The position numbers were made by a program, and so were the translations under genes. 6,354 nt of DNA from a virus (taxonomy: Duplodnaviria; Heunggongvirae; Uroviricota; Caudoviricetes): IMG/VR virus record IMGVR_UViG_2778261419_000005; one strand, written 5' to 3'. Each line of letters starts with the position of its first letter. Positions within the stretch are counted from its first letter, which is position 1. This document shows, piece after piece, positions 1 through 6,354 of the stretch. The notes under the pieces are model-generated. The model did no database searches, had not been told where the DNA came from, and worked only from the letters and a program-made list of their open reading frames with translations.

Positions 1-423
1 TCACTGCGCCACGTCCTGAAAATTACCCTGATAGAAAGCCAGTATGCGCTGCATAACTTCGCTCTTCCGGCACTCGCGACAGATTATGTTTAGGCGACTG
101 TCGTAGCGACGTATTTCTCCGTCAGGTGATGACCAGATAAGGTCCGGATCAACCACAGCAGGTTTCTTCACCTTTGCCCTCGAGAGTTTTTTGCGGGCGT
201 TTTGCCAGTCCTTACGCGCCTGTTCAGAGGGGAATAACCCGTAGCCGGAGTTGTATACATCGCCACTGGCTACCAGCTCTCTGGCAAGAACGCTCATCAG
301 ATATCTAGTCGCACCTGTTTTAGCTTCCAGTTGCCGTAACGTCTCACGGCCGCTCTGGCGCACGAGTTCCACCACCTGCCATTTAATTTTTTCCCGCTCT
401 TCTTGTGTAAAAACTTTTGCCAC
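1..423 (-). CDS. Hypothetical protein (140 aa), possible helix-turn-helix DNA-binding protein
   Basis: Complete minus-strand ORF: GTG start at 423-421 preceded by a G-rich Shine-Dalgarno (AAGGGGGA, reverse complement of 425-432, 4-nt spacer), TGA stop at 3-1. Segment ETLRQLEAKTGATRYLMSVLAREL looks HTH-like; C-terminal CxxC (CRECR). No family recognised with confidence. Confidence 0.55.
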   Translation of the reverse strand: MAKVFTQEEREKIKWQVVELVRQSGRETLRQLEAKTGATRYLMSVLARELVASGDVYNSGYGLFPSEQARKDWQNARKKLSRAKVKKPAVVDPDLIWSSPDGEIRRYDSRLNIICRECRKSEVMQRILAFYQGNFQDVAQ

Positions 424-463: not shown

Positions 464-1096
464 TTATCCTCTGAAACCAGGCGGAATTTCTGTATCCGGT
501 TCAGAAATATGATTAACACAACGCTGTACAGGTGAACGTCCCAGGCGGATGACCAGTTCGTCCCATTTTTCGCGGAGCTTTGACGGGCTCATGATGTTTT
601 TTACCCAGAATGGATCTCGCTGAACCCGACCAAACATTTCGCAAATTTGTCTGTGGCTTCTGCCATCCAGCATCCGCATTGTGCGCACGTCATTGGCCCA
701 GGCAGTCCAGTTAGGCTCTTTTGGTCGCATGATCTCGCCATCATCACTGGCTGCCTGTTCGTAGAGACCCACGATCCGCCCCCAGATCCACTGCGCACAC
801 GCCAAATCCTCCCTGCTACCCCACTGGCGTTTTTTCGCACTAAACACAACCGCGTCGGAGTTCCGGGTTAAAGAATCCTGTTCAGTCGTCTGCGGGTCCG
901 GTTGCGAAGCTTCCGGACGAAAAGTGTTTTTATTCTCTGTAGTAATCTCTGTTGTATTCTCTGTAAGATCATCAGGCCATTTTGACCCGATGACATTGGG
1001 TCGTTTTGAACCAATGGAGCGTTTCATTTTGACCTCTTCCATCGTGTCATTTTGACCTGATGGAGCGGCGCATTTTGAACCGATGGATTCGCTCAA
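464..1096 (-). CDS. Replication protein with DnaT-like (primosomal protein I-like) C-terminal domain; possibly the C-terminal part of a split lambda-O-like initiator
   Basis: Minus-strand ORF with TAA stop at 466-464. C-terminus ...VNHISEPDTEIPPGFRG matches my recollection of the E. coli DnaT C-terminus (...VNTVSEPDSQIPPGFRG), and the preceding ~80 aa align plausibly with the DnaT C-domain. N-terminal ~60 aa are low-complexity and encoded by the repeat arrays. Start uncertain: ORF-track start is TTG at 1096; in-frame ATG at 1042; in-frame ATG at 1027 has a strong SD (GGAAGAGG, 5-nt spacer). Confidence 0.6.
   Translation of the reverse strand: MSESIGSKCAAPSGQNDTMEEVKMKRSIGSKRPNVIGSKWPDDLTENTTEITTENKNTFRPEASQPDPQTTEQDSLTRNSDAVVFSAKKRQWGSREDLACAQWIWGRIVGLYEQAASDDGEIMRPKEPNWTAWANDVRTMRMLDGRSHRQICEMFGRVQRDPFWVKNIMSPSKLREKWDELVIRLGRSPVQRCVNHISEPDTEIPPGFRG
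930..964. repeat. AT-rich block with three 12-bp-period direct repeats (TATTCTCTGTA / TAATCTCTGTT / TATTCTCTGTA) flanking the iterons
   Basis: Read directly at 930-940, 942-952 and 954-964; encodes the low-complexity peptide TENTTEITTENKNT on the minus strand. Position relative to the iterons matches an origin-type AT-rich unwinding region. Confidence 0.45.
978..1093. repeat. Five iteron-like direct repeats, consensus CATTTTGA(A/C)C(C/T)GATGGAGCG, period 23-24 bp; candidate replication origin
   Basis: Copies begin at 978, 1002, 1025, 1048 and 1071 on the plus strand (CATTTTGACCCGATGA; CGTTTTGAACCAATGGAGCG; CATTTTGACCTCTTCC; CATTTTGACCTGATGGAGCGGCG; CATTTTGAACCGATGGATTCGC). They lie inside the 5' coding region of the DnaT-like ORF, immediately downstream of the initiator N-domain ORF. 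Confidence 0.55.
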
Positions 1097-1107
1097 TTTG
1101 CCACCAT

Positions 1108-1407
1108 CTAAAAGTAGAAATTGGTCATATCGCGCTTTGATTTATTGAGCTTTTCACAACGCAAAAGCCCCAGCGTTTTCAGACTTGCAAACGCGCGCTT
1201 TAACGTTGACTCTGACCAGAATGGGAACTGTTCCAGCCATTGTTCCGTTGTGTTATAAATCCAGCGAACACCATCACATTCCATGCCGGAGTTGGTATCT
1301 CTCAACCAGTAGTGCAGTTGTTGCAAAACAATGGCTTCGTTTAAGCCAATTTTCATTGCCAGCTGCGTGTTTATAACCAGTGGGCGTTCAGCAAAAAGAA
1401 GGCTCAT
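1108..1407 (-). CDS. Replication initiator N-terminal winged-helix DNA-binding domain protein (O-like / replisome-organiser-like)
   Basis: Minus-strand ORF with TAG stop at 1110-1108. Preferred start is ATG at 1407-1405 with SD-like GGATGGA 3 nt upstream; the ORF track extends to a TTG at 1461. Product MSLLFAERPLVINTQLAMKIGLNEAIVLQQLHYWL...WSESTLKRAFASLKTLGLL has the wHTH signature common to phage/plasmid initiator N-domains. Different reading frame from the downstream DnaT-like ORF. Confidence 0.55.
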   Translation of the reverse strand: MSLLFAERPLVINTQLAMKIGLNEAIVLQQLHYWLRDTNSGMECDGVRWIYNTTEQWLEQFPFWSESTLKRAFASLKTLGLLRCEKLNKSKRDMTNFYF

Positions 1408-1651
1408 AATTCCATCCAGCTTTTTGTTGGTATTGCTGTCGATACGCAAGCTTGAAAGCAATTGCTTTTTCTATAAGTTCGTCAGTTTCACGATCCACTA
1501 CGGCAGGATCAGCAAAAAGCAGTCCGGACTCCACCACATCGCCATATTCTTTGTTTAACCCGGCGATCATGCACGTGATGCTTTTTCCGTCAGTAATTTC
1601 ACGATACAACCTGAAATCACTAATCCGGATAGCCTCCATAATCGCAGGCAC
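1388..1651 (-). CDS. Hypothetical protein (83-87 aa); possibly a 5'-truncated gene remnant
   Basis: Protein-like composition, but only GTG (1651) or a weak-context ATG (1639) as start. The frame is open upstream to 1705 without any ATG, as expected for a 3' fragment of a longer gene. Overlaps the next gene by ~20 nt. TGA stop at 1390-1388. Confidence 0.3.
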   Translation of the reverse strand: MPAIMEAIRISDFRLYREITDGKSITCMIAGLNKEYGDVVESGLLFADPAVVDRETDELIEKAIAFKLAYRQQYQQKAGWNYEPSFC

Positions 1652-1773
1652 TAGCGCCGTGAACTTTTCACGCTTATCCCTGGTGTCGATATCCGGCGTT
1701 AATTGTTAACTGGTTAACGTCACCTGGAGGCACCAGGCACTGCATCACAAAATTCATTGTTGAGGACGCGATA
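1652..1773. promoter_or_regulatory. Divergent intergenic control region with candidate operator palindrome GTTAAC-TG-GTTAAC (1705-1718) and adjacent CCTGG...CCAGG dyad (1723-1737)
   Basis: Only sizeable non-coding gap between the two oppositely transcribed gene sets; dyad symmetry read directly. No confident -35/-10 assignment. SD GAGGA at 1762-1766 serves the first plus-strand gene. Confidence 0.3.
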
Positions 1774-2243: not shown

Positions 2244-4715
2244 ATGAGTAAAGTCTTTATTTGCGCCGCTATTCCTGACGAACTGGCAACAAGGGAAGAA
2301 GGCGCTGTGGCTGTAGCCACAGCCATTGAAGCTGGCGACGAACGCCGTGCTCGAGCAAAATTTCACTGGCAGTTCCTGGAACATTATCCGGCTGCTCAGG
2401 ACTGCGCTTATAAATTTATTGTCTGCGAGGATAAACCTGGCATACCCCGCCCTGCCCTCGATTCATGGGATGCTGAATATATGCAGGAAAACCGCTGGGA
2501 TGAGGAGTCTGCTTCTTTTGTCCCGGTTGAGACTGAATCCGATCCGATGAACGTCACTTTTGACAAGCTGGCCCCTGAAGTACAGAACGCTGTCATGGTT
2601 AAGTTCGACACATGTGAAAACATCACCGTTGATATGGTTATTAGCGCACAGGAATTGTTGCAGGAAGACATGGCAACATTCGACGGACATATCGTTGAAG
2701 CGTTGATGAAAATGCCAGAAGTTAACGCCATGTATCCGGAGCTTAAGTTGCACGCCATTGGGTGGGTTAAGCATAAATGTATTCCTGGTGCTAAATGGCC
2801 CGAAATTCAGGCAGAGATGCGCATCTGGAAAAAACGTCGCGAAGGTGAACGCAAGGAAACCGGAAAATACACGTCTGTTGTTGATCTCGCCCGCGCCAGA
2901 ACCAATCAACAGTACACTGAAAATTCAACAGGAAAAATCAGCCCGGTCATTGCTGCCATTCATCGCGAATACAAGCAGACATGGAAAACACTGGATGACG
3001 AACTGGCCTACGCTCTCTGGCCTGGTGATGTGGATGCCGGAAACATTGACGGCAGCATCCATCGCTGGGCAAAAAAAGAAGTTATCGACAACGACCGCGA
3101 AGACTGGAAGCGTATCTCGGCATCAATGCGCAAACAGCCTGATGCCCTTCGCTACGACCGCCAGACTATTTTTGGCCTTGTCCGTGAGCGTCCGATCGAC
3201 ATTCACAAAGATCCCATAGCACTGAACAAATATATCTGCGAATACCTGACGACAAAGGGCGTGTTTGAGAATGAAGAAACAGACCTGGGCACTGTTGATG
3301 TTCTCCAGTCATCAGAAACACAAACTGATGCAGTGGAAACTGAGGTATCTGATATCCCAAAAAATGAAACCGCGCCGGAAGCTGAACCATCTGTAGAGCG
3401 TGAGGGGCCGTTCTATTTCCTCTTCGCAGATAAGGACGGAGAAAAATACGGTCGCGCAAACAAACTTTCTGGTCTGGATAAGGCACTGGCTGCTGGCGCC
3501 ACTGAAATCACAAAAGAAGAATATTTTGCCCGAAAAAATGGCACATACACGGGCTTACCGCAAAATGTAGATACCGCTGAAGATTCAGAACAACCAGAGC
3601 CGATAAAAGTTACCGCTGACGAAGTAAACAAAATTATGCAGGCAGCCAATATCAGCCAGCCTGACGCCGATAAGTTGCTTGCTGCATCACGTGGTGAATT
3701 TGTTGAAGGGATTAGTGACCCGAATGATCCGAAATGGGTTAAGGGGATCCAGACCCGCGATTCTGTGAACCAGAACCAGCATGAATCGGAACGGAACTAC
3801 CAAAAAGCGGAACAAAACAGCACAAATGCGTTACAAAACGAGCCAGAAACGAAACAGCCTGAACCAGTGGCGCAACTGGAAGTGGAAAAAGTCTGCACCG
3901 CCTGCGGTCAGACCGGCGGCGGCAACTGCCCTGATTGTGGCGCGGTGATGGGCGACGCAACATACCAGGAAACATTCGATGAAGAGTATCAGGTTGAAGT
4001 TCAGGAAGATGATCTGGAGGAAATGGAAGGCGCTGAACATCCACACAAGGAGAACACTGGCGGCAATCAGCATCACAATAGCGATAATGAAACTGGCGAG
4101 ACGGCAGATCACTCAATTAAGGTGAACGGTCATCACGAAATCACATCCACCAGCAGGACGTGTGACCATCTAATGATCGACCTTGAAACCATGGGAAAAA
4201 ATCCTGATGCCCCGATCATCTCAATAGGTGCAATATTTTTCGATCCGCAAACCGGAGATATGGGACCGGAATTTAGTAAGACTATCGATCTGGAAACTGC
4301 TGGCGGAGTCATTGATCGGGACACCATTAAATGGTGGCTTAAGCAATCACGCGAAGCGCAATCTGCCATTATGACCGATGAAATCCCGTTAGATGATGCA
4401 CTGTTACAATTGCGGGAATTTATCGACGAAAACTCCGGTGAATTTTTTGTTCAGGTTTGGGGAAATGGAGCCAACTTCGACAACACGATTTTGCGCCGTT
4501 CATACGAACGGCAGGGGATCCCCTGCCCGTGGCGTTACTACAACGATCGCGATGTACGCACAATCGTTGAGCTGGGGAAAGCCATAGACTTCGATGCCAG
4601 AACGGCTATTCCATTCGAAGGTGAGCGCCATAATGCACTTGATGACGCCCGTTACCAGGCAAAATACGTTTCAGTTATCTGGCAAAAACTGATCCCGAGT
4701 CAGGCTGATTCTTAA
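2244..4715 (+). CDS. Large modular protein (823 aa) with C4 zinc ribbon and C-terminal DEDDh (DnaQ-like) 3'-5' exonuclease domain
   Basis: ATG at 2244 with SD GAGG ~10 nt upstream; TAA stop at 4713-4715. Exo motifs read directly: Exo I MIDLET (D646/E648, nt 4179-4187), Exo II GNGANFD (D746, nt 4479-4481), Exo III HNALDDARYQAKY (H796/D801, nt 4629-4646). CxxC-x7-CxxC zinc ribbon at aa 551-565 (nt 3894-3938). N-terminal ~340 aa have no motif I recognise; aa ~341-630 are acidic/polar low-complexity linkers. Confidence 0.88.
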   Translation: MSKVFICAAIPDELATREEGAVAVATAIEAGDERRARAKFHWQFLEHYPAAQDCAYKFIVCEDKPGIPRPALDSWDAEYMQENRWDEESASFVPVETESDPMNVTFDKLAPEVQNAVMVKFDTCENITVDMVISAQELLQEDMATFDGHIVEALMKMPEVNAMYPELKLHAIGWVKHKCIPGAKWPEIQAEMRIWKKRREGERKETGKYTSVVDLARARTNQQYTENSTGKISPVIAAIHREYKQTWKTLDDELAYALWPGDVDAGNIDGSIHRWAKKEVIDNDREDWKRISASMRKQPDALRYDRQTIFGLVRERPIDIHKDPIALNKYICEYLTTKGVFENEETDLGTVDVLQSSETQTDAVETEVSDIPKNETAPEAEPSVEREGPFYFLFADKDGEKYGRANKLSGLDKALAAGATEITKEEYFARKNGTYTGLPQNVDTAEDSEQPEPIKVTADEVNKIMQAANISQPDADKLLAASRGEFVEGISDPNDPKWVKGIQTRDSVNQNQHESERNYQKAEQNSTNALQNEPETKQPEPVAQLEVEKVCTACGQTGGGNCPDCGAVMGDATYQETFDEEYQVEVQEDDLEEMEGAEHPHKENTGGNQHHNSDNETGETADHSIKVNGHHEITSTSRTCDHLMIDLETMGKNPDAPIISIGAIFFDPQTGDMGPEFSKTIDLETAGGVIDRDTIKWWLKQSREAQSAIMTDEIPLDDALLQLREFIDENSGEFFVQVWGNGANFDNTILRRSYERQGIPCPWRYYNDRDVRTIVELGKAIDFDARTAIPFEGERHNALDDARYQAKYVSVIWQKLIPSQADS

Positions 4716-4787: not shown

Positions 4788-5039
4788 ATGAGCGAAGTAA
4801 TCATGATTGTCTCTCCCGGCAAATGGGTATCCGAAGAGCAGTTAATTGCGCTGAAAGGAATAAAAAAAGGTACGTTAAAAAAGGCCCGGGAAAAATCGTT
4901 TATGGAAGGAAGGGAATATAAGCATGTCGCTCATGACGGTATGCCATGGGATAACAGCCCATGCTTTTACAACCTGGAAGAAATTGATCGCTGGATTGAG
5001 CGCCAGGCATCAGCGAGACCAAGACGTCATCTTACTTGA
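4788..5039 (+). CDS. xis: Excisionase-like protein (Xis)
   Basis: 83-aa ORF immediately upstream of and co-oriented with the integrase; purine-rich SD (AAGAGA) upstream of ATG 4788 (alternative ATG at 4803); N-terminal KWVSEEQLIALKGIKKGTLKKAR and C-terminal YNLEEIDRWI fit the small excisionase pattern of enterobacterial prophages (recollection, not searched). Confidence 0.65.
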   Translation: MSEVIMIVSPGKWVSEEQLIALKGIKKGTLKKAREKSFMEGREYKHVAHDGMPWDNSPCFYNLEEIDRWIERQASARPRRHLT

Positions 5040-5073
5040 CTAAAAGCCACACTAACTAATGAGAGAAGTTGAA

Positions 5074-6354
5074 ATGAAATATCCGACAGGCGTGGAAAAC
5101 CATGGAGGGAAATTACGTATCTGGTTTGTTTATAAAGGCGTAAGAGTCAGGGAAAATCTGGGGGTTCCTGACACAGCAAAAAACAGGCGCGTTGCAGGTG
5201 AACTACGCGCCTCTGTTTGTTACGCAATAAAAACTGGTGTTTTCGACTATGCAAAACAGTTTCCCTCCTCACGCAATCTGGAAAAATTTGGTGAGGCCCG
5301 ACAAGATTTAACCATAAAAGAACTGGCTGAAAAATTTCTGGCACTGAAAGAAACTGAAGTCGCAAAAACATCACTCAACACATACCGTGCCGTCATCAAA
5401 AATATCCTGAGCATAATCGGTGAAAAAAATCTTGCCTCATCGATTAATAAAGAAAAATTACTGGAGGTTCGTAAAGAGCTACTGACTGGATACCAGATCC
5501 CCAAAAGTAACTATATTGTTACACAACCAGGGAGATCGGCTGTAACTGTAAATAATTACATGACAAATCTTAACGCCGTGTTCCAGTTTGGTGTTGATAA
5601 CGGTTACTTGGCAGATAACCCGTTTAAGGGGATCTCGCCATTAAAGGAATCAAGAACCATTCCGGATCCTCTTTCGCGGGAGGAATTCATCCGTCTTATC
5701 GATGCGTGCAGAAATCAGCAAGCCAAAAATTTATGGTGTGTTTCTGTTTATACTGGCGTTCGCCCTGGTGAGCTGTGTGCACTTGGATGGGAGGACATAG
5801 ATCTGAAAAATGGAACAATGATGATCAGGAGAAATTTAGCAAAAGACCGTTTCACGGTACCAAAAACACAGGCGGGAACCAATCGGGTCATTCATCTTAT
5901 TAAGCCAGCAATCGACGCTCTCCGGAGTCAGATGACATTAACGAGACTGAGCAAAGAGCATATCATTGATGTTCACCTCAGAGAGTATGGCAGAACAGAA
6001 AAACAAAAATGCACCTTTGTTTTTCAACCTGAAGTGTCAGCGAGAGTAAAAAATTATGGTGACCATTTTACCGTTGACTCAATAAGGCAGATGTGGGACG
6101 CAGCGATAAAACGTGCCGGACTCCGCCATCGAAAATCATATCAGTCGAGACATACTTATGCCTGCTGGTCGCTGACAGCTGGTGCTAACCCGGCATTTAT
6201 AGCAAACCAGATGGGCCATGCAGATGCGCAAATGGTATTTCAGGTATACGGAAAATGGATGTCTGAAAACAATAATGCACAGGTAGCTTTGTTAAATACA
6301 CAGTTAAGCGAGTTTGCCCCAACCATGCCCCATAACGAAGCAATGAAAAATTAA
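5074..6354 (+). CDS. int: Phage-type tyrosine integrase / site-specific recombinase
   Basis: Start chosen at ATG 5074 (SD GAGAGAAG upstream); ORF-track start 5059 lacks an SD. N-terminus MKYPTGVENHGGKLRIWF resembles the arm-binding N-terminus of Rac-type prophage integrases as I recall them; C-terminal catalytic region has tyrosine-recombinase signatures (RHTYACW...GANPAFIANQMGH...QVYGKW). TAA stop at 6352-6354 coincides with the window end. Confidence 0.93.
   Translation: MKYPTGVENHGGKLRIWFVYKGVRVRENLGVPDTAKNRRVAGELRASVCYAIKTGVFDYAKQFPSSRNLEKFGEARQDLTIKELAEKFLALKETEVAKTSLNTYRAVIKNILSIIGEKNLASSINKEKLLEVRKELLTGYQIPKSNYIVTQPGRSAVTVNNYMTNLNAVFQFGVDNGYLADNPFKGISPLKESRTIPDPLSREEFIRLIDACRNQQAKNLWCVSVYTGVRPGELCALGWEDIDLKNGTMMIRRNLAKDRFTVPKTQAGTNRVIHLIKPAIDALRSQMTLTRLSKEHIIDVHLREYGRTEKQKCTFVFQPEVSARVKNYGDHFTVDSIRQMWDAAIKRAGLRHRKSYQSRHTYACWSLTAGANPAFIANQMGHADAQMVFQVYGKWMSENNNAQVALLNTQLSEFAPTMPHNEAMKN

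What the first reader, a model, noticed from the sequence alone, without database searches (positions are those of the whole stretch)
1094..1141. Initiator gene appears split between its DNA-binding domain and its ori/linker by a frame break
The wHTH N-domain ORF ends at TAG 1110-1108, and the DnaT-like ORF continues in the -1 frame. That frame is open from 1141 but has no ATG until 1042/1027. A single -1 shift within 1108-1141 would fuse the two into a ~314-aa O-like initiator (N-domain, ori-encoded linker, C-domain). Alternatives are a pseudogenising frameshift in a decaying prophage, a sequencing error, ribosomal frameshifting at the stop (CUU-UUA-G context, not a classical slippery heptamer), or a genuine two-gene arrangement using the ATG at 1027 with its strong SD.
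Basis: partly seen in the sequence, partly recalled or inferred. Interest (0 to 1): 0.6.

Follow-up and report, generated by a model that had tools for sequence, protein, structure and literature searches.

The report
Replication initiator gene broken by deletion
The replication-initiator gene of a decaying Qin-type prophage in E. coli is cut into two reading frames by a 22-base deletion, so this is an ordinary pseudogene and not a special coding mechanism.

Summary
On the minus strand, one ORF (ATG 1407 to TAG 1110-1108) encodes the winged-helix N-domain of a phage O-like replication initiator. The rest of the protein continues in the -1 frame, which is open from 1141 and stops at 466-464.

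The cause is a 22-bp deletion (CACGATCAACTATGGGAGCGAG) at window 1115/1114. Intact relatives in E. coli, E. albertii, Citrobacter and Salmonella all carry one ORF of 321-330 aa, and PHROG 391 "replication initiation O-like" matches it end to end.

- **Frequency:** the deletion junction is in 1 of 5,426 complete E. coli genomes. The intact sequence is in at least 660.
- **Not an artefact:** the 99-aa truncated product was called on 143 contigs from independent projects.
- **Damage:** the deletion removes seven conserved residues (TINYGSE) from the last wing strand of the DNA-binding domain.
- **Second lesion:** this haplotype also has a 2,105-bp deletion that removes the repressor, cro, DicF and the 5' end of ydaT, so the upstream regulatory region is gone.
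- **Origin:** the iteron and A+T-rich origin inside the gene is intact.

Programmed frameshifting and a functional two-gene arrangement are not supported. Interest is low.

The parts
1114..1115 (-). Junction of a 22-bp deletion (missing CACGATCAACTATGGGAGCGAG; placement is ambiguous by 1 nt because of a shared C). This is the cause of the frame break.
   Evidence: Alignment with three loci, two of them intact. The 40-mer across the junction is in 1 of 5,426 complete E. coli genomes. The intact 44-mer is in 660.
1108..1407 (-). 5' fragment of the initiator gene: 99 codons plus a premature TAG (1110-1108). It encodes the winged-helix N-domain, but the second half of the last wing strand is missing and the product ends ...DMTNFYF*.
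464..1141 (-). 3' fragment of the initiator gene in the -1 frame, encoding the disordered linker and the helical C-domain. Possible restarts are TTG 1096 (chosen by PGAP), ATG 1042 and ATG 1027 (chosen by other gene callers; SD-like GAAGAGG upstream).
   Evidence: PHROG 391 positions 102-298, E 1.9e-70. 34% identity to the lambda O C-domain, E 1e-27.
970..1101 (-). Iteron array inside the gene. Five copies of GKTCAAAAYG lie at 978-987, 1002-1011, 1025-1034, 1048-1057 and 1071-1080, spaced 23-24 bp apart. A possible degenerate sixth copy lies near 1090-1101. This is the presumed origin-binding site, and the deletion does not touch it.
   Evidence: Repeat families D1 and D2. Five pattern matches against 0.14 expected, with 0 of 200 shuffles reaching five.
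931..966 (-). Three tandem 12-bp A+T-rich repeats (TACAGAGAATA type; local GC 0.275) next to the iterons. They are the likely DNA-unwinding element and encode TENTTEITTEN.
   Evidence: Repeat family D3. Composition. The peptide motif is conserved across the family.
467..529 (-). C-terminal tail ...VNHISEPDTEIPPGFRG, which resembles the extreme C-terminus of host DnaT.
   Evidence: NCBIfam NF002770 positions 160-179, E 0.004, far below the family cut-off. PDB chains 2ru8, 6aep and 9zbt match over the last 21 residues.
1388..1651 (-). 3' remnant of the ydaT-family gene. In intact elements it overlaps the initiator start by 20 nt, which suggests translational coupling.
   Evidence: L014: 87-aa ORF with a weak YdaT_toxin match.
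1690..1691 (.). Junction of a second deletion, 2,105 bp long with 2-bp microhomology. It removes the 5' end of ydaT, dicC (cro), the dicA-like repressor, ydfA/B/C and DicF. The regulatory region upstream of the initiator is therefore gone.
   Evidence: window against L005. DicF is found only in the undeleted locus.
1..423 (-). DUF977 / Ren-like gene immediately downstream of the initiator. No P- or DnaC-type helicase loader is present.

Best explanation
The window is the early region of a Qin-type cryptic prophage of E. coli, integrated next to rspB. Its replication initiator normally is one 321-aa protein with three parts: an N-terminal winged-helix domain that binds iterons, a disordered linker whose DNA carries the origin (five iterons plus an A+T-rich repeat), and a helical C-domain related to the C-domain of lambda O that ends in a DnaT-like tail.

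In this lineage a 22-bp deletion at 1115/1114 removed seven codons (TINYGSE) from the end of the N-domain and shifted the frame. Translation from ATG 1407 therefore stops at TAG 1110-1108 after 99 residues. The linker and C-domain are stranded in the -1 frame.

An initiator of this type needs origin binding and replisome recruitment on the same polypeptide, so the gene is inactivated. It is a recent pseudogene in a prophage that is also losing other parts.

Shown here: the deletion, its rarity, its presence in independent assemblies, the single-ORF state of relatives, and the domain layout. Inferred: loss of function, and iteron binding by the N-domain.
For: - **The deletion:** there is a clean 22-bp gap relative to intact alleles and no other indel. 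The window differs from an intact allele (L002) by only 3 substitutions plus the gap over 1.7 kb, so the event is recent.
- **Intact alleles:** they are annotated as one 966-nt CDS.
- **Single-ORF state in relatives:** homologues down to 67-69% identity in Citrobacter and Salmonella are single proteins of 321-330 aa covering 100% of the query. More distant representatives (35-57% identity) also span both domains.
- **Profile match:** PHROG 391 matches the intact protein end to end at E 8.6e-92. The two window ORFs match its two halves.
- **Rarity:** the junction is in 1 of 5,426 complete genomes, against at least 660 with the intact sequence.
- **Independent observations:** the 99-aa product ending NFYF is on 143 contigs from NCBI, ENA, JGI and Logan. 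Nine fetched loci from different samples all carry the junction, and three are 100% identical to the whole window.
- **Purifying selection on intact alleles:** dN/dS is 0.10 between two intact alleles, with 13 synonymous and 0 non-synonymous differences in the N-domain.
- **Conserved residues lost:** the deleted residues lie in the conserved D-x-TN-x-Y-x-INY motif (Y98 is at least 90% conserved) and in wing strand 96-100 of the model.
- **Other decay in the same element:** there is a 2,105-bp deletion of the immunity region, and the undeleted relatives show a frameshifted methyltransferase and an IS remnant downstream.
Against: - No expression or activity data exist, so loss of function is inferred.
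- The downstream fragment has usable starts: TTG 1096, and ATG 1027 with a good Shine-Dalgarno sequence. It could therefore be made as a separate protein.
- The allele has persisted long enough to be found in many isolates and on two backgrounds, with and without the 2.1-kb deletion. That is compatible with neutrality but does not prove it.
Confidence: 0.93

Rival explanations
1. Functional two-gene arrangement. The 99-aa N-fragment and a separately initiated C-fragment (from TTG 1096 or ATG 1027) are both made. They either cooperate, or the N-fragment alone acts as an origin-binding blocker or regulator.
For: The SD-like GAAGAGG lies 5 nt before ATG 1027, and gene callers do call a 187-aa or 210-aa ORF there. 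N- and C-domains of this family are modular and occur with other partners. The allele is present in many isolates.
Against: - No relative in any genus shows this split.
- The SD and ATG 1027 also exist in intact alleles, where they are simply codons inside an iteron.
- The deletion cuts a conserved strand of the DNA-binding domain.
- In the window's haplotype the upstream promoter and regulatory region is deleted, and promoter-like sites are no more frequent than chance.
Confidence: 0.04
2. Programmed -1 ribosomal frameshifting at UUU-UAG restores a ~314-aa fusion protein.
For: A stop codon in the A site right after UUU could favour low-level P-site slippage. The downstream RNA folds somewhat better than shuffles (z -2.4).
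Against: - There is no X-XXY-YYZ heptamer. tRNA-Phe would have to re-pair on CUU.
- The folding signal is explained by the partly palindromic iterons.
- The two-frame layout exists only in this rare deletion allele and in no relative, so there has been no selection for a recoding signal.
- Any fusion product would still lack seven conserved residues.
Confidence: 0.015
3. Sequencing or assembly artefact.
For: Frame breaks in single assemblies are often errors.
Against: A 22-bp loss is not a homopolymer error. The identical junction occurs in one complete genome and in at least nine fetched loci from different projects and technologies. The truncated product is indexed on 143 contigs.
Confidence: 0.01

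Closest known systems
Intact 321-aa initiator of Qin-type lambdoid prophages (e.g. WP_000054509.1; PHROG 391 'replication initiation O-like')
   Same: Apart from the deletion, the sequence is 99% identical. The gene order is the same (dicC, ydaT, initiator, DUF977), as are the iterons and the chromosomal site.
   Different: The window allele lacks 22 bp, so it is read as two ORFs of 99 aa and up to 225 codons.
Bacteriophage lambda O protein and ori-lambda
   Same: Both have a three-part design with the origin (iterons followed by an A+T-rich stretch) inside the gene's linker. The C-domain is homologous: 34% identity over 148 residues, E 1e-27.
   Different: The N-domain does not match Pfam PF04492 Phage_rep_O, which lambda O does match. 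No P-type loader gene follows. The tail is DnaT-like, which lambda O's is not.
RepA_N-type plasmid initiators and DnaD/DnaB-type winged-helix domains (PDB 4pta, 4pql, 5kbj, 5wtn)
   Different: Sequence identity is only 12-19%, there is no Pfam match, and the C-terminal parts differ.
E. coli DnaT (primosomal protein)
   Same: The last ~20 residues (SEPDxxIPPGFRG) are nearly identical in pattern.

Membership tests
Qin-type O-like initiator (PHROG 391) | One polypeptide matching the profile end to end | tested here: not met
   The intact homologue matches positions 11-298 of 298 at E 8.6e-92. The window ORFs match 11-86 and 102-298 separately. The window therefore holds a disrupted copy of this family's gene.
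Qin-type O-like initiator (PHROG 391) | N-terminal winged-helix domain | tested here: met
   In the AlphaFold model of an intact homologue, residues 10-108 have pLDDT >90, and the fold matches winged-helix initiators. The window copy lacks the end of the last wing strand.
Qin-type O-like initiator (PHROG 391) | Iterons and A+T-rich repeats inside the coding sequence | tested here: met
   There are five iterons at 23-24 bp spacing, against 0.14 expected by chance. A 3 x 12-bp repeat has GC 0.275.
Lambda O (Pfam PF04492 Phage_rep_O) | N-domain matches PF04492 | tested here: not met
   Neither the window ORF nor the intact homologue hits PF04492, even at E up to 10. Lambda O itself scores 123 bits.
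Lambda O (Pfam PF04492 Phage_rep_O) | C-domain homologous to the lambda O C-domain | tested here: met
   BLASTP gives 34% identity at E 1e-27. tblastn hits lambda, 434, phi80 and Stx phages at about 1e-16.
Lambda O (Pfam PF04492 Phage_rep_O) | Adjacent P-type helicase-loader gene | tested here: not met
   The next gene is DUF977 / Ren-like, both in the window and in intact loci.
DnaT | Whole-protein match to NF002770 above the cut-off | tested here: not met
   The score is 16-17 bits against a cut-off of 201. Only profile positions 160-179 are matched.
Programmed -1 frameshift site | Slippery X-XXY-YYZ heptamer at the frame junction | tested here: not met
   The sequence at the junction is UAC-UUU-UAG.
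Programmed -1 frameshift site | Two-frame arrangement conserved among relatives | tested here: not met
   Relatives are single ORFs. The junction is in 1 of 5,426 genomes.
Programmed -1 frameshift site | Downstream stimulatory RNA structure | tested here: inconclusive
   The fold z-score is -2.4, with 5 of 200 shuffles folding as well. The iteron palindromes explain this.

The most novel reading that the evidence does not exclude
The split allele is retained because the stand-alone 99-aa N-fragment, or the stand-alone C-fragment with its DnaT-like tail, has a use of its own. It might occupy the iterons of incoming Qin-type phages, or titrate a host primosome partner, and so interfere with superinfecting relatives.
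Probability: 0.04. Interest if true: 0.4.

Novelty: already known. Interest (0 to 1): 0.1.

Why it matters
It matters little beyond correct annotation. The two CDSs that pipelines call here ("hypothetical protein" and "phage replication protein O") are halves of one inactivated gene and should be marked as a pseudogene. The case shows how cryptic prophages lose replication functions step by step. It also provides a natural allele that separates the origin-binding and recruiting domains of an O-like initiator, which could be used as a ready-made control in replication assays.

Tried and rejected
- **Pfam:** neither half gave a significant domain, so the family assignment rests on PHROGs, pairwise comparison with lambda O, and structure.
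- **NCBIfam and PDB sequence search:** both found only the 20-residue DnaT-like tail. I therefore rejected "DnaT-like" as a description of the whole downstream ORF.
- **Rfam:** nothing was found in the window.
- **Promoter scan:** promoter-like sites were no more frequent than chance.
- **First iteron pattern:** it was mis-specified and matched only two copies. I corrected it.
- **RNA folding downstream of the stop:** it gave no convincing frameshift stimulator.
- **Microhomology at the 22-bp deletion:** I looked for a direct repeat flanking the deletion and found only a single shared C.
- **Literature:** searches on the Qin prophage and on the DnaT tail found nothing about this initiator or about what the tail binds.
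- **Phage PhiR42_1:** this record carries the intact gene, but it looks like a predicted Qin prophage region that includes flxA and relBE. I do not count it as proof of a replication-competent phage.

Full report
**What the window is.** The window matches the Qin-type cryptic prophage that sits next to rspB in many E. coli chromosomes.
- On the plus strand it carries dicB (1774-1962), ydfD (1962-2150), the 823-aa YdfE exonuclease (2244-4715), an excisionase (4788-5039) and an integrase (5059-6354).
- On the minus strand it carries a 3' remnant of a ydaT-family gene (1388-1651), the two ORFs of the finding, and a DUF977 gene (1-423).
- The window is 100% identical over all 6,354 bases to contigs of three independent draft assemblies (L010, L013, L014). 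It is therefore a natural sequence.

**Checking the observation.**
- The upstream ORF stops at TAG 1110-1108.
- The -1 frame has TAA at 1144-1142 and is open from 1141 to the stop at 466-464. ATG codons lie at 1042 and 1027, a TTG lies at 1096, and GAAGAGG sits 5 nt before ATG 1027.
- The true start of the upstream ORF is ATG 1407, not the TTG at 1461. PGAP uses it, and M-S-L-L is the conserved N-terminus across the family.

**The cause of the break.** I aligned the window with the same region of other E. coli genomes. The only length difference is a clean 22-bp gap at 1115/1114: the window lacks CACGATCAACTATGGGAGCGAG.
- In the intact alleles the region is one 966-nt CDS encoding 321 aa.
- Twenty-two is 21 + 1, so the deletion removes seven codons (TINYGSE) and shifts the frame by one.

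**How common each state is.**
- A 40-mer across the junction occurs in 1 of 5,426 complete E. coli genomes (NZ_CM194533.1). A 44-mer of the intact sequence occurs in 660.
- 1,707 complete genomes carry at least 80% of the 1.3-kb region.
- In the large protein collection, the 99-aa product that ends in NFYF, which only this deletion produces, was called on 143 contigs from NCBI, ENA, JGI and Logan.
- Nine loci fetched from different samples all contain the junction.
- The intact 321-aa sequence sits in a 90% cluster of 3,664 member sequences, and one exact sequence is on at least 1,000 contigs.
- The deletion is therefore real and heritable, but it is confined to a minor lineage. It is not a sequencing artefact.

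**The state in relatives.**
- Homologues down to 67-69% identity in Citrobacter, Salmonella and E. albertii are single proteins of 321-330 aa covering the whole query.
- Representatives at 35-57% identity also span both domains.
- PHROG 391 "replication initiation O-like" matches the intact protein over positions 11-298 of 298 at E 8.6e-92. The window's two ORFs match positions 11-86 and 102-298.
- Two intact alleles that differ by 5% have dN/dS of 0.10, with 13 synonymous and no non-synonymous changes in the N-domain. The undisrupted gene is, or recently was, under purifying selection.

**Anatomy of the protein.** I built an AlphaFold model of an intact homologue (P0033) from a 40-sequence alignment. 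Mean pLDDT is 79.
- **N-domain:** residues 10-108 are confident, with wing strands at 82-85 and 96-100.
- **Linker:** residues 111-170 are disordered.
- **C-domain:** residues 179-297 form a confident helical domain.
- **C-domain homology:** it is homologous to the C-domain of lambda O, with 34% identity over 148 residues at E 1e-27. The N-domain does not match Pfam's Phage_rep_O, which lambda O does match.
- **Deleted residues:** they fall in the conserved motif D-x-TN-x-Y-x-INY, which is the second wing strand. The 99-aa product is thus a damaged DNA-binding domain, not a cleanly excised one.

**The origin.**
- The DNA encoding the linker carries five copies of GKTCAAAAYG at 23-24 bp spacing (978-1080). 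Chance expectation is 0.14, and none of 200 shuffles reached five.
- Next to them are three 12-bp A+T-rich repeats (931-966, GC 0.275).
- This is the layout of ori-lambda inside gene O, which I state from established knowledge of lambda.
- The deletion lies just upstream of the array and leaves it intact.

**Most likely mechanism and consequence.** An initiator of this design has to bind the iterons with its N-domain and bring in host replication proteins with its C-domain on the same molecule. This is inferred from lambda O and from the domain layout. The deletion separates the two functions and damages the first, so the gene is inactivated.

Other lesions in the element fit this reading:
- This haplotype has a second deletion of 2,105 bp at 1690/1691, with 2-bp microhomology. 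It removes the 5' end of ydaT, dicC, the dicA-like repressor, ydfA/B/C and DicF, and so removes the regulatory region that would drive the initiator.
- The undeleted relatives carry a frameshifted methyltransferase and an IS remnant downstream.

I put the pseudogene reading at 0.93.

**Rivals.**
- **Functional split (0.04):** it has usable restart codons in its favour. Against it, no relative is split, those codons exist identically in intact alleles, and the haplotype has no promoter.
- **Programmed frameshifting (0.015):** there is no slippery heptamer, and the layout is not conserved. The modest RNA-fold signal (z -2.4) is accounted for by the partly palindromic iterons.
- **Artefact (0.01):** the many independent observations exclude it.

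**Comparison with known systems.** The gene is a disrupted copy of the Qin-type O-like initiator (PHROG 391).
- It works like lambda O in having the origin inside the gene and an O-type C-domain.
- It is not a member of the Phage_rep_O Pfam family, has no adjacent P gene, and ends in a tail that resembles the last 20 residues of host DnaT.
- "DnaT-like" is not a valid description of the whole downstream ORF.

**Novelty.** A frameshifting deletion in a cryptic prophage gene is ordinary. The result is useful mainly for annotation.

Noticed in passing
window 1690-1691 (compare L005 7692-9796): A 2,105-bp deletion with 2-bp microhomology removes the 5' end of ydaT, dicC, the dicA-like repressor, ydfA/B/C and the DicF sRNA. 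It leaves dicB without its known promoter region. The identical junction is also in strain MLI105 (L004).
   Followed up: yes
window 1114-1115 and 1690-1691; loci L002-L014: All four combinations of the 22-bp and 2,105-bp deletions exist: both (window, L007, L010, L011, L013, L014); 22-bp only (L005, L006, L008, L009, L012); 2,105-bp only (L004); neither (L002, L003). The two sites are 575 bp apart. This implies either recombination between prophage alleles or recurrence of one of the deletions.
   Followed up: partly
window 467-529 (-): The last ~20 residues of the initiator (VNHISEPDTEIPPGFRG) closely resemble the extreme C-terminus of E. coli DnaT. The motif IPxGFRG is kept in the Citrobacter and Salmonella homologues. 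No P- or DnaC-type loader gene follows the initiator, so the tail may recruit a host primosome partner directly. What it binds is unknown.
   Followed up: partly
window 978-1080 (-); protein P0044: Some E. coli alleles are 290 aa because 31 codons (93 bp, equal to four iteron units of 23+23+23+24 bp) are missing in frame. This leaves a single iteron and an intact reading frame.
   Followed up: partly
window 931-966 (-): The A+T-rich 12-bp repeats encode TENTTEITTEN. A T-E-x-T-T-E motif is conserved at the same place in relatives as distant as about 35% identity. This suggests that the DNA element, not the peptide, is what is conserved.
   Followed up: no
window 1388-1407 (-); proteins P0031, P0032, P0034: In intact elements the ydaT-family gene and the initiator overlap by 20 nt. 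Some genomes carry 448-aa YdaT-initiator fusion ORFs, presumably from another frameshift.
   Followed up: no
L004 2026-3308 (strain MLI105): The same initiator gene is independently disrupted by an IS66-family insertion. This is a second, unrelated way in which the gene has been inactivated in a Qin-type prophage.
   Followed up: partly
window 1-423 (-): Pfam classes the DUF977 gene after the initiator as unknown. PHROG 142 calls it a 'Ren-like exclusion protein' (E 1.6e-47). It occupies the position where lambda has P and ren.
   Followed up: no
window 2244-4715 (+): The 823-aa 'exonuclease' has a C-terminal Rv2179c-like 3'-5' exoribonuclease domain (E 2.3e-67). One prophage record labels it exodeoxyribonuclease VIII, which this domain content does not support.
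   Followed up: no
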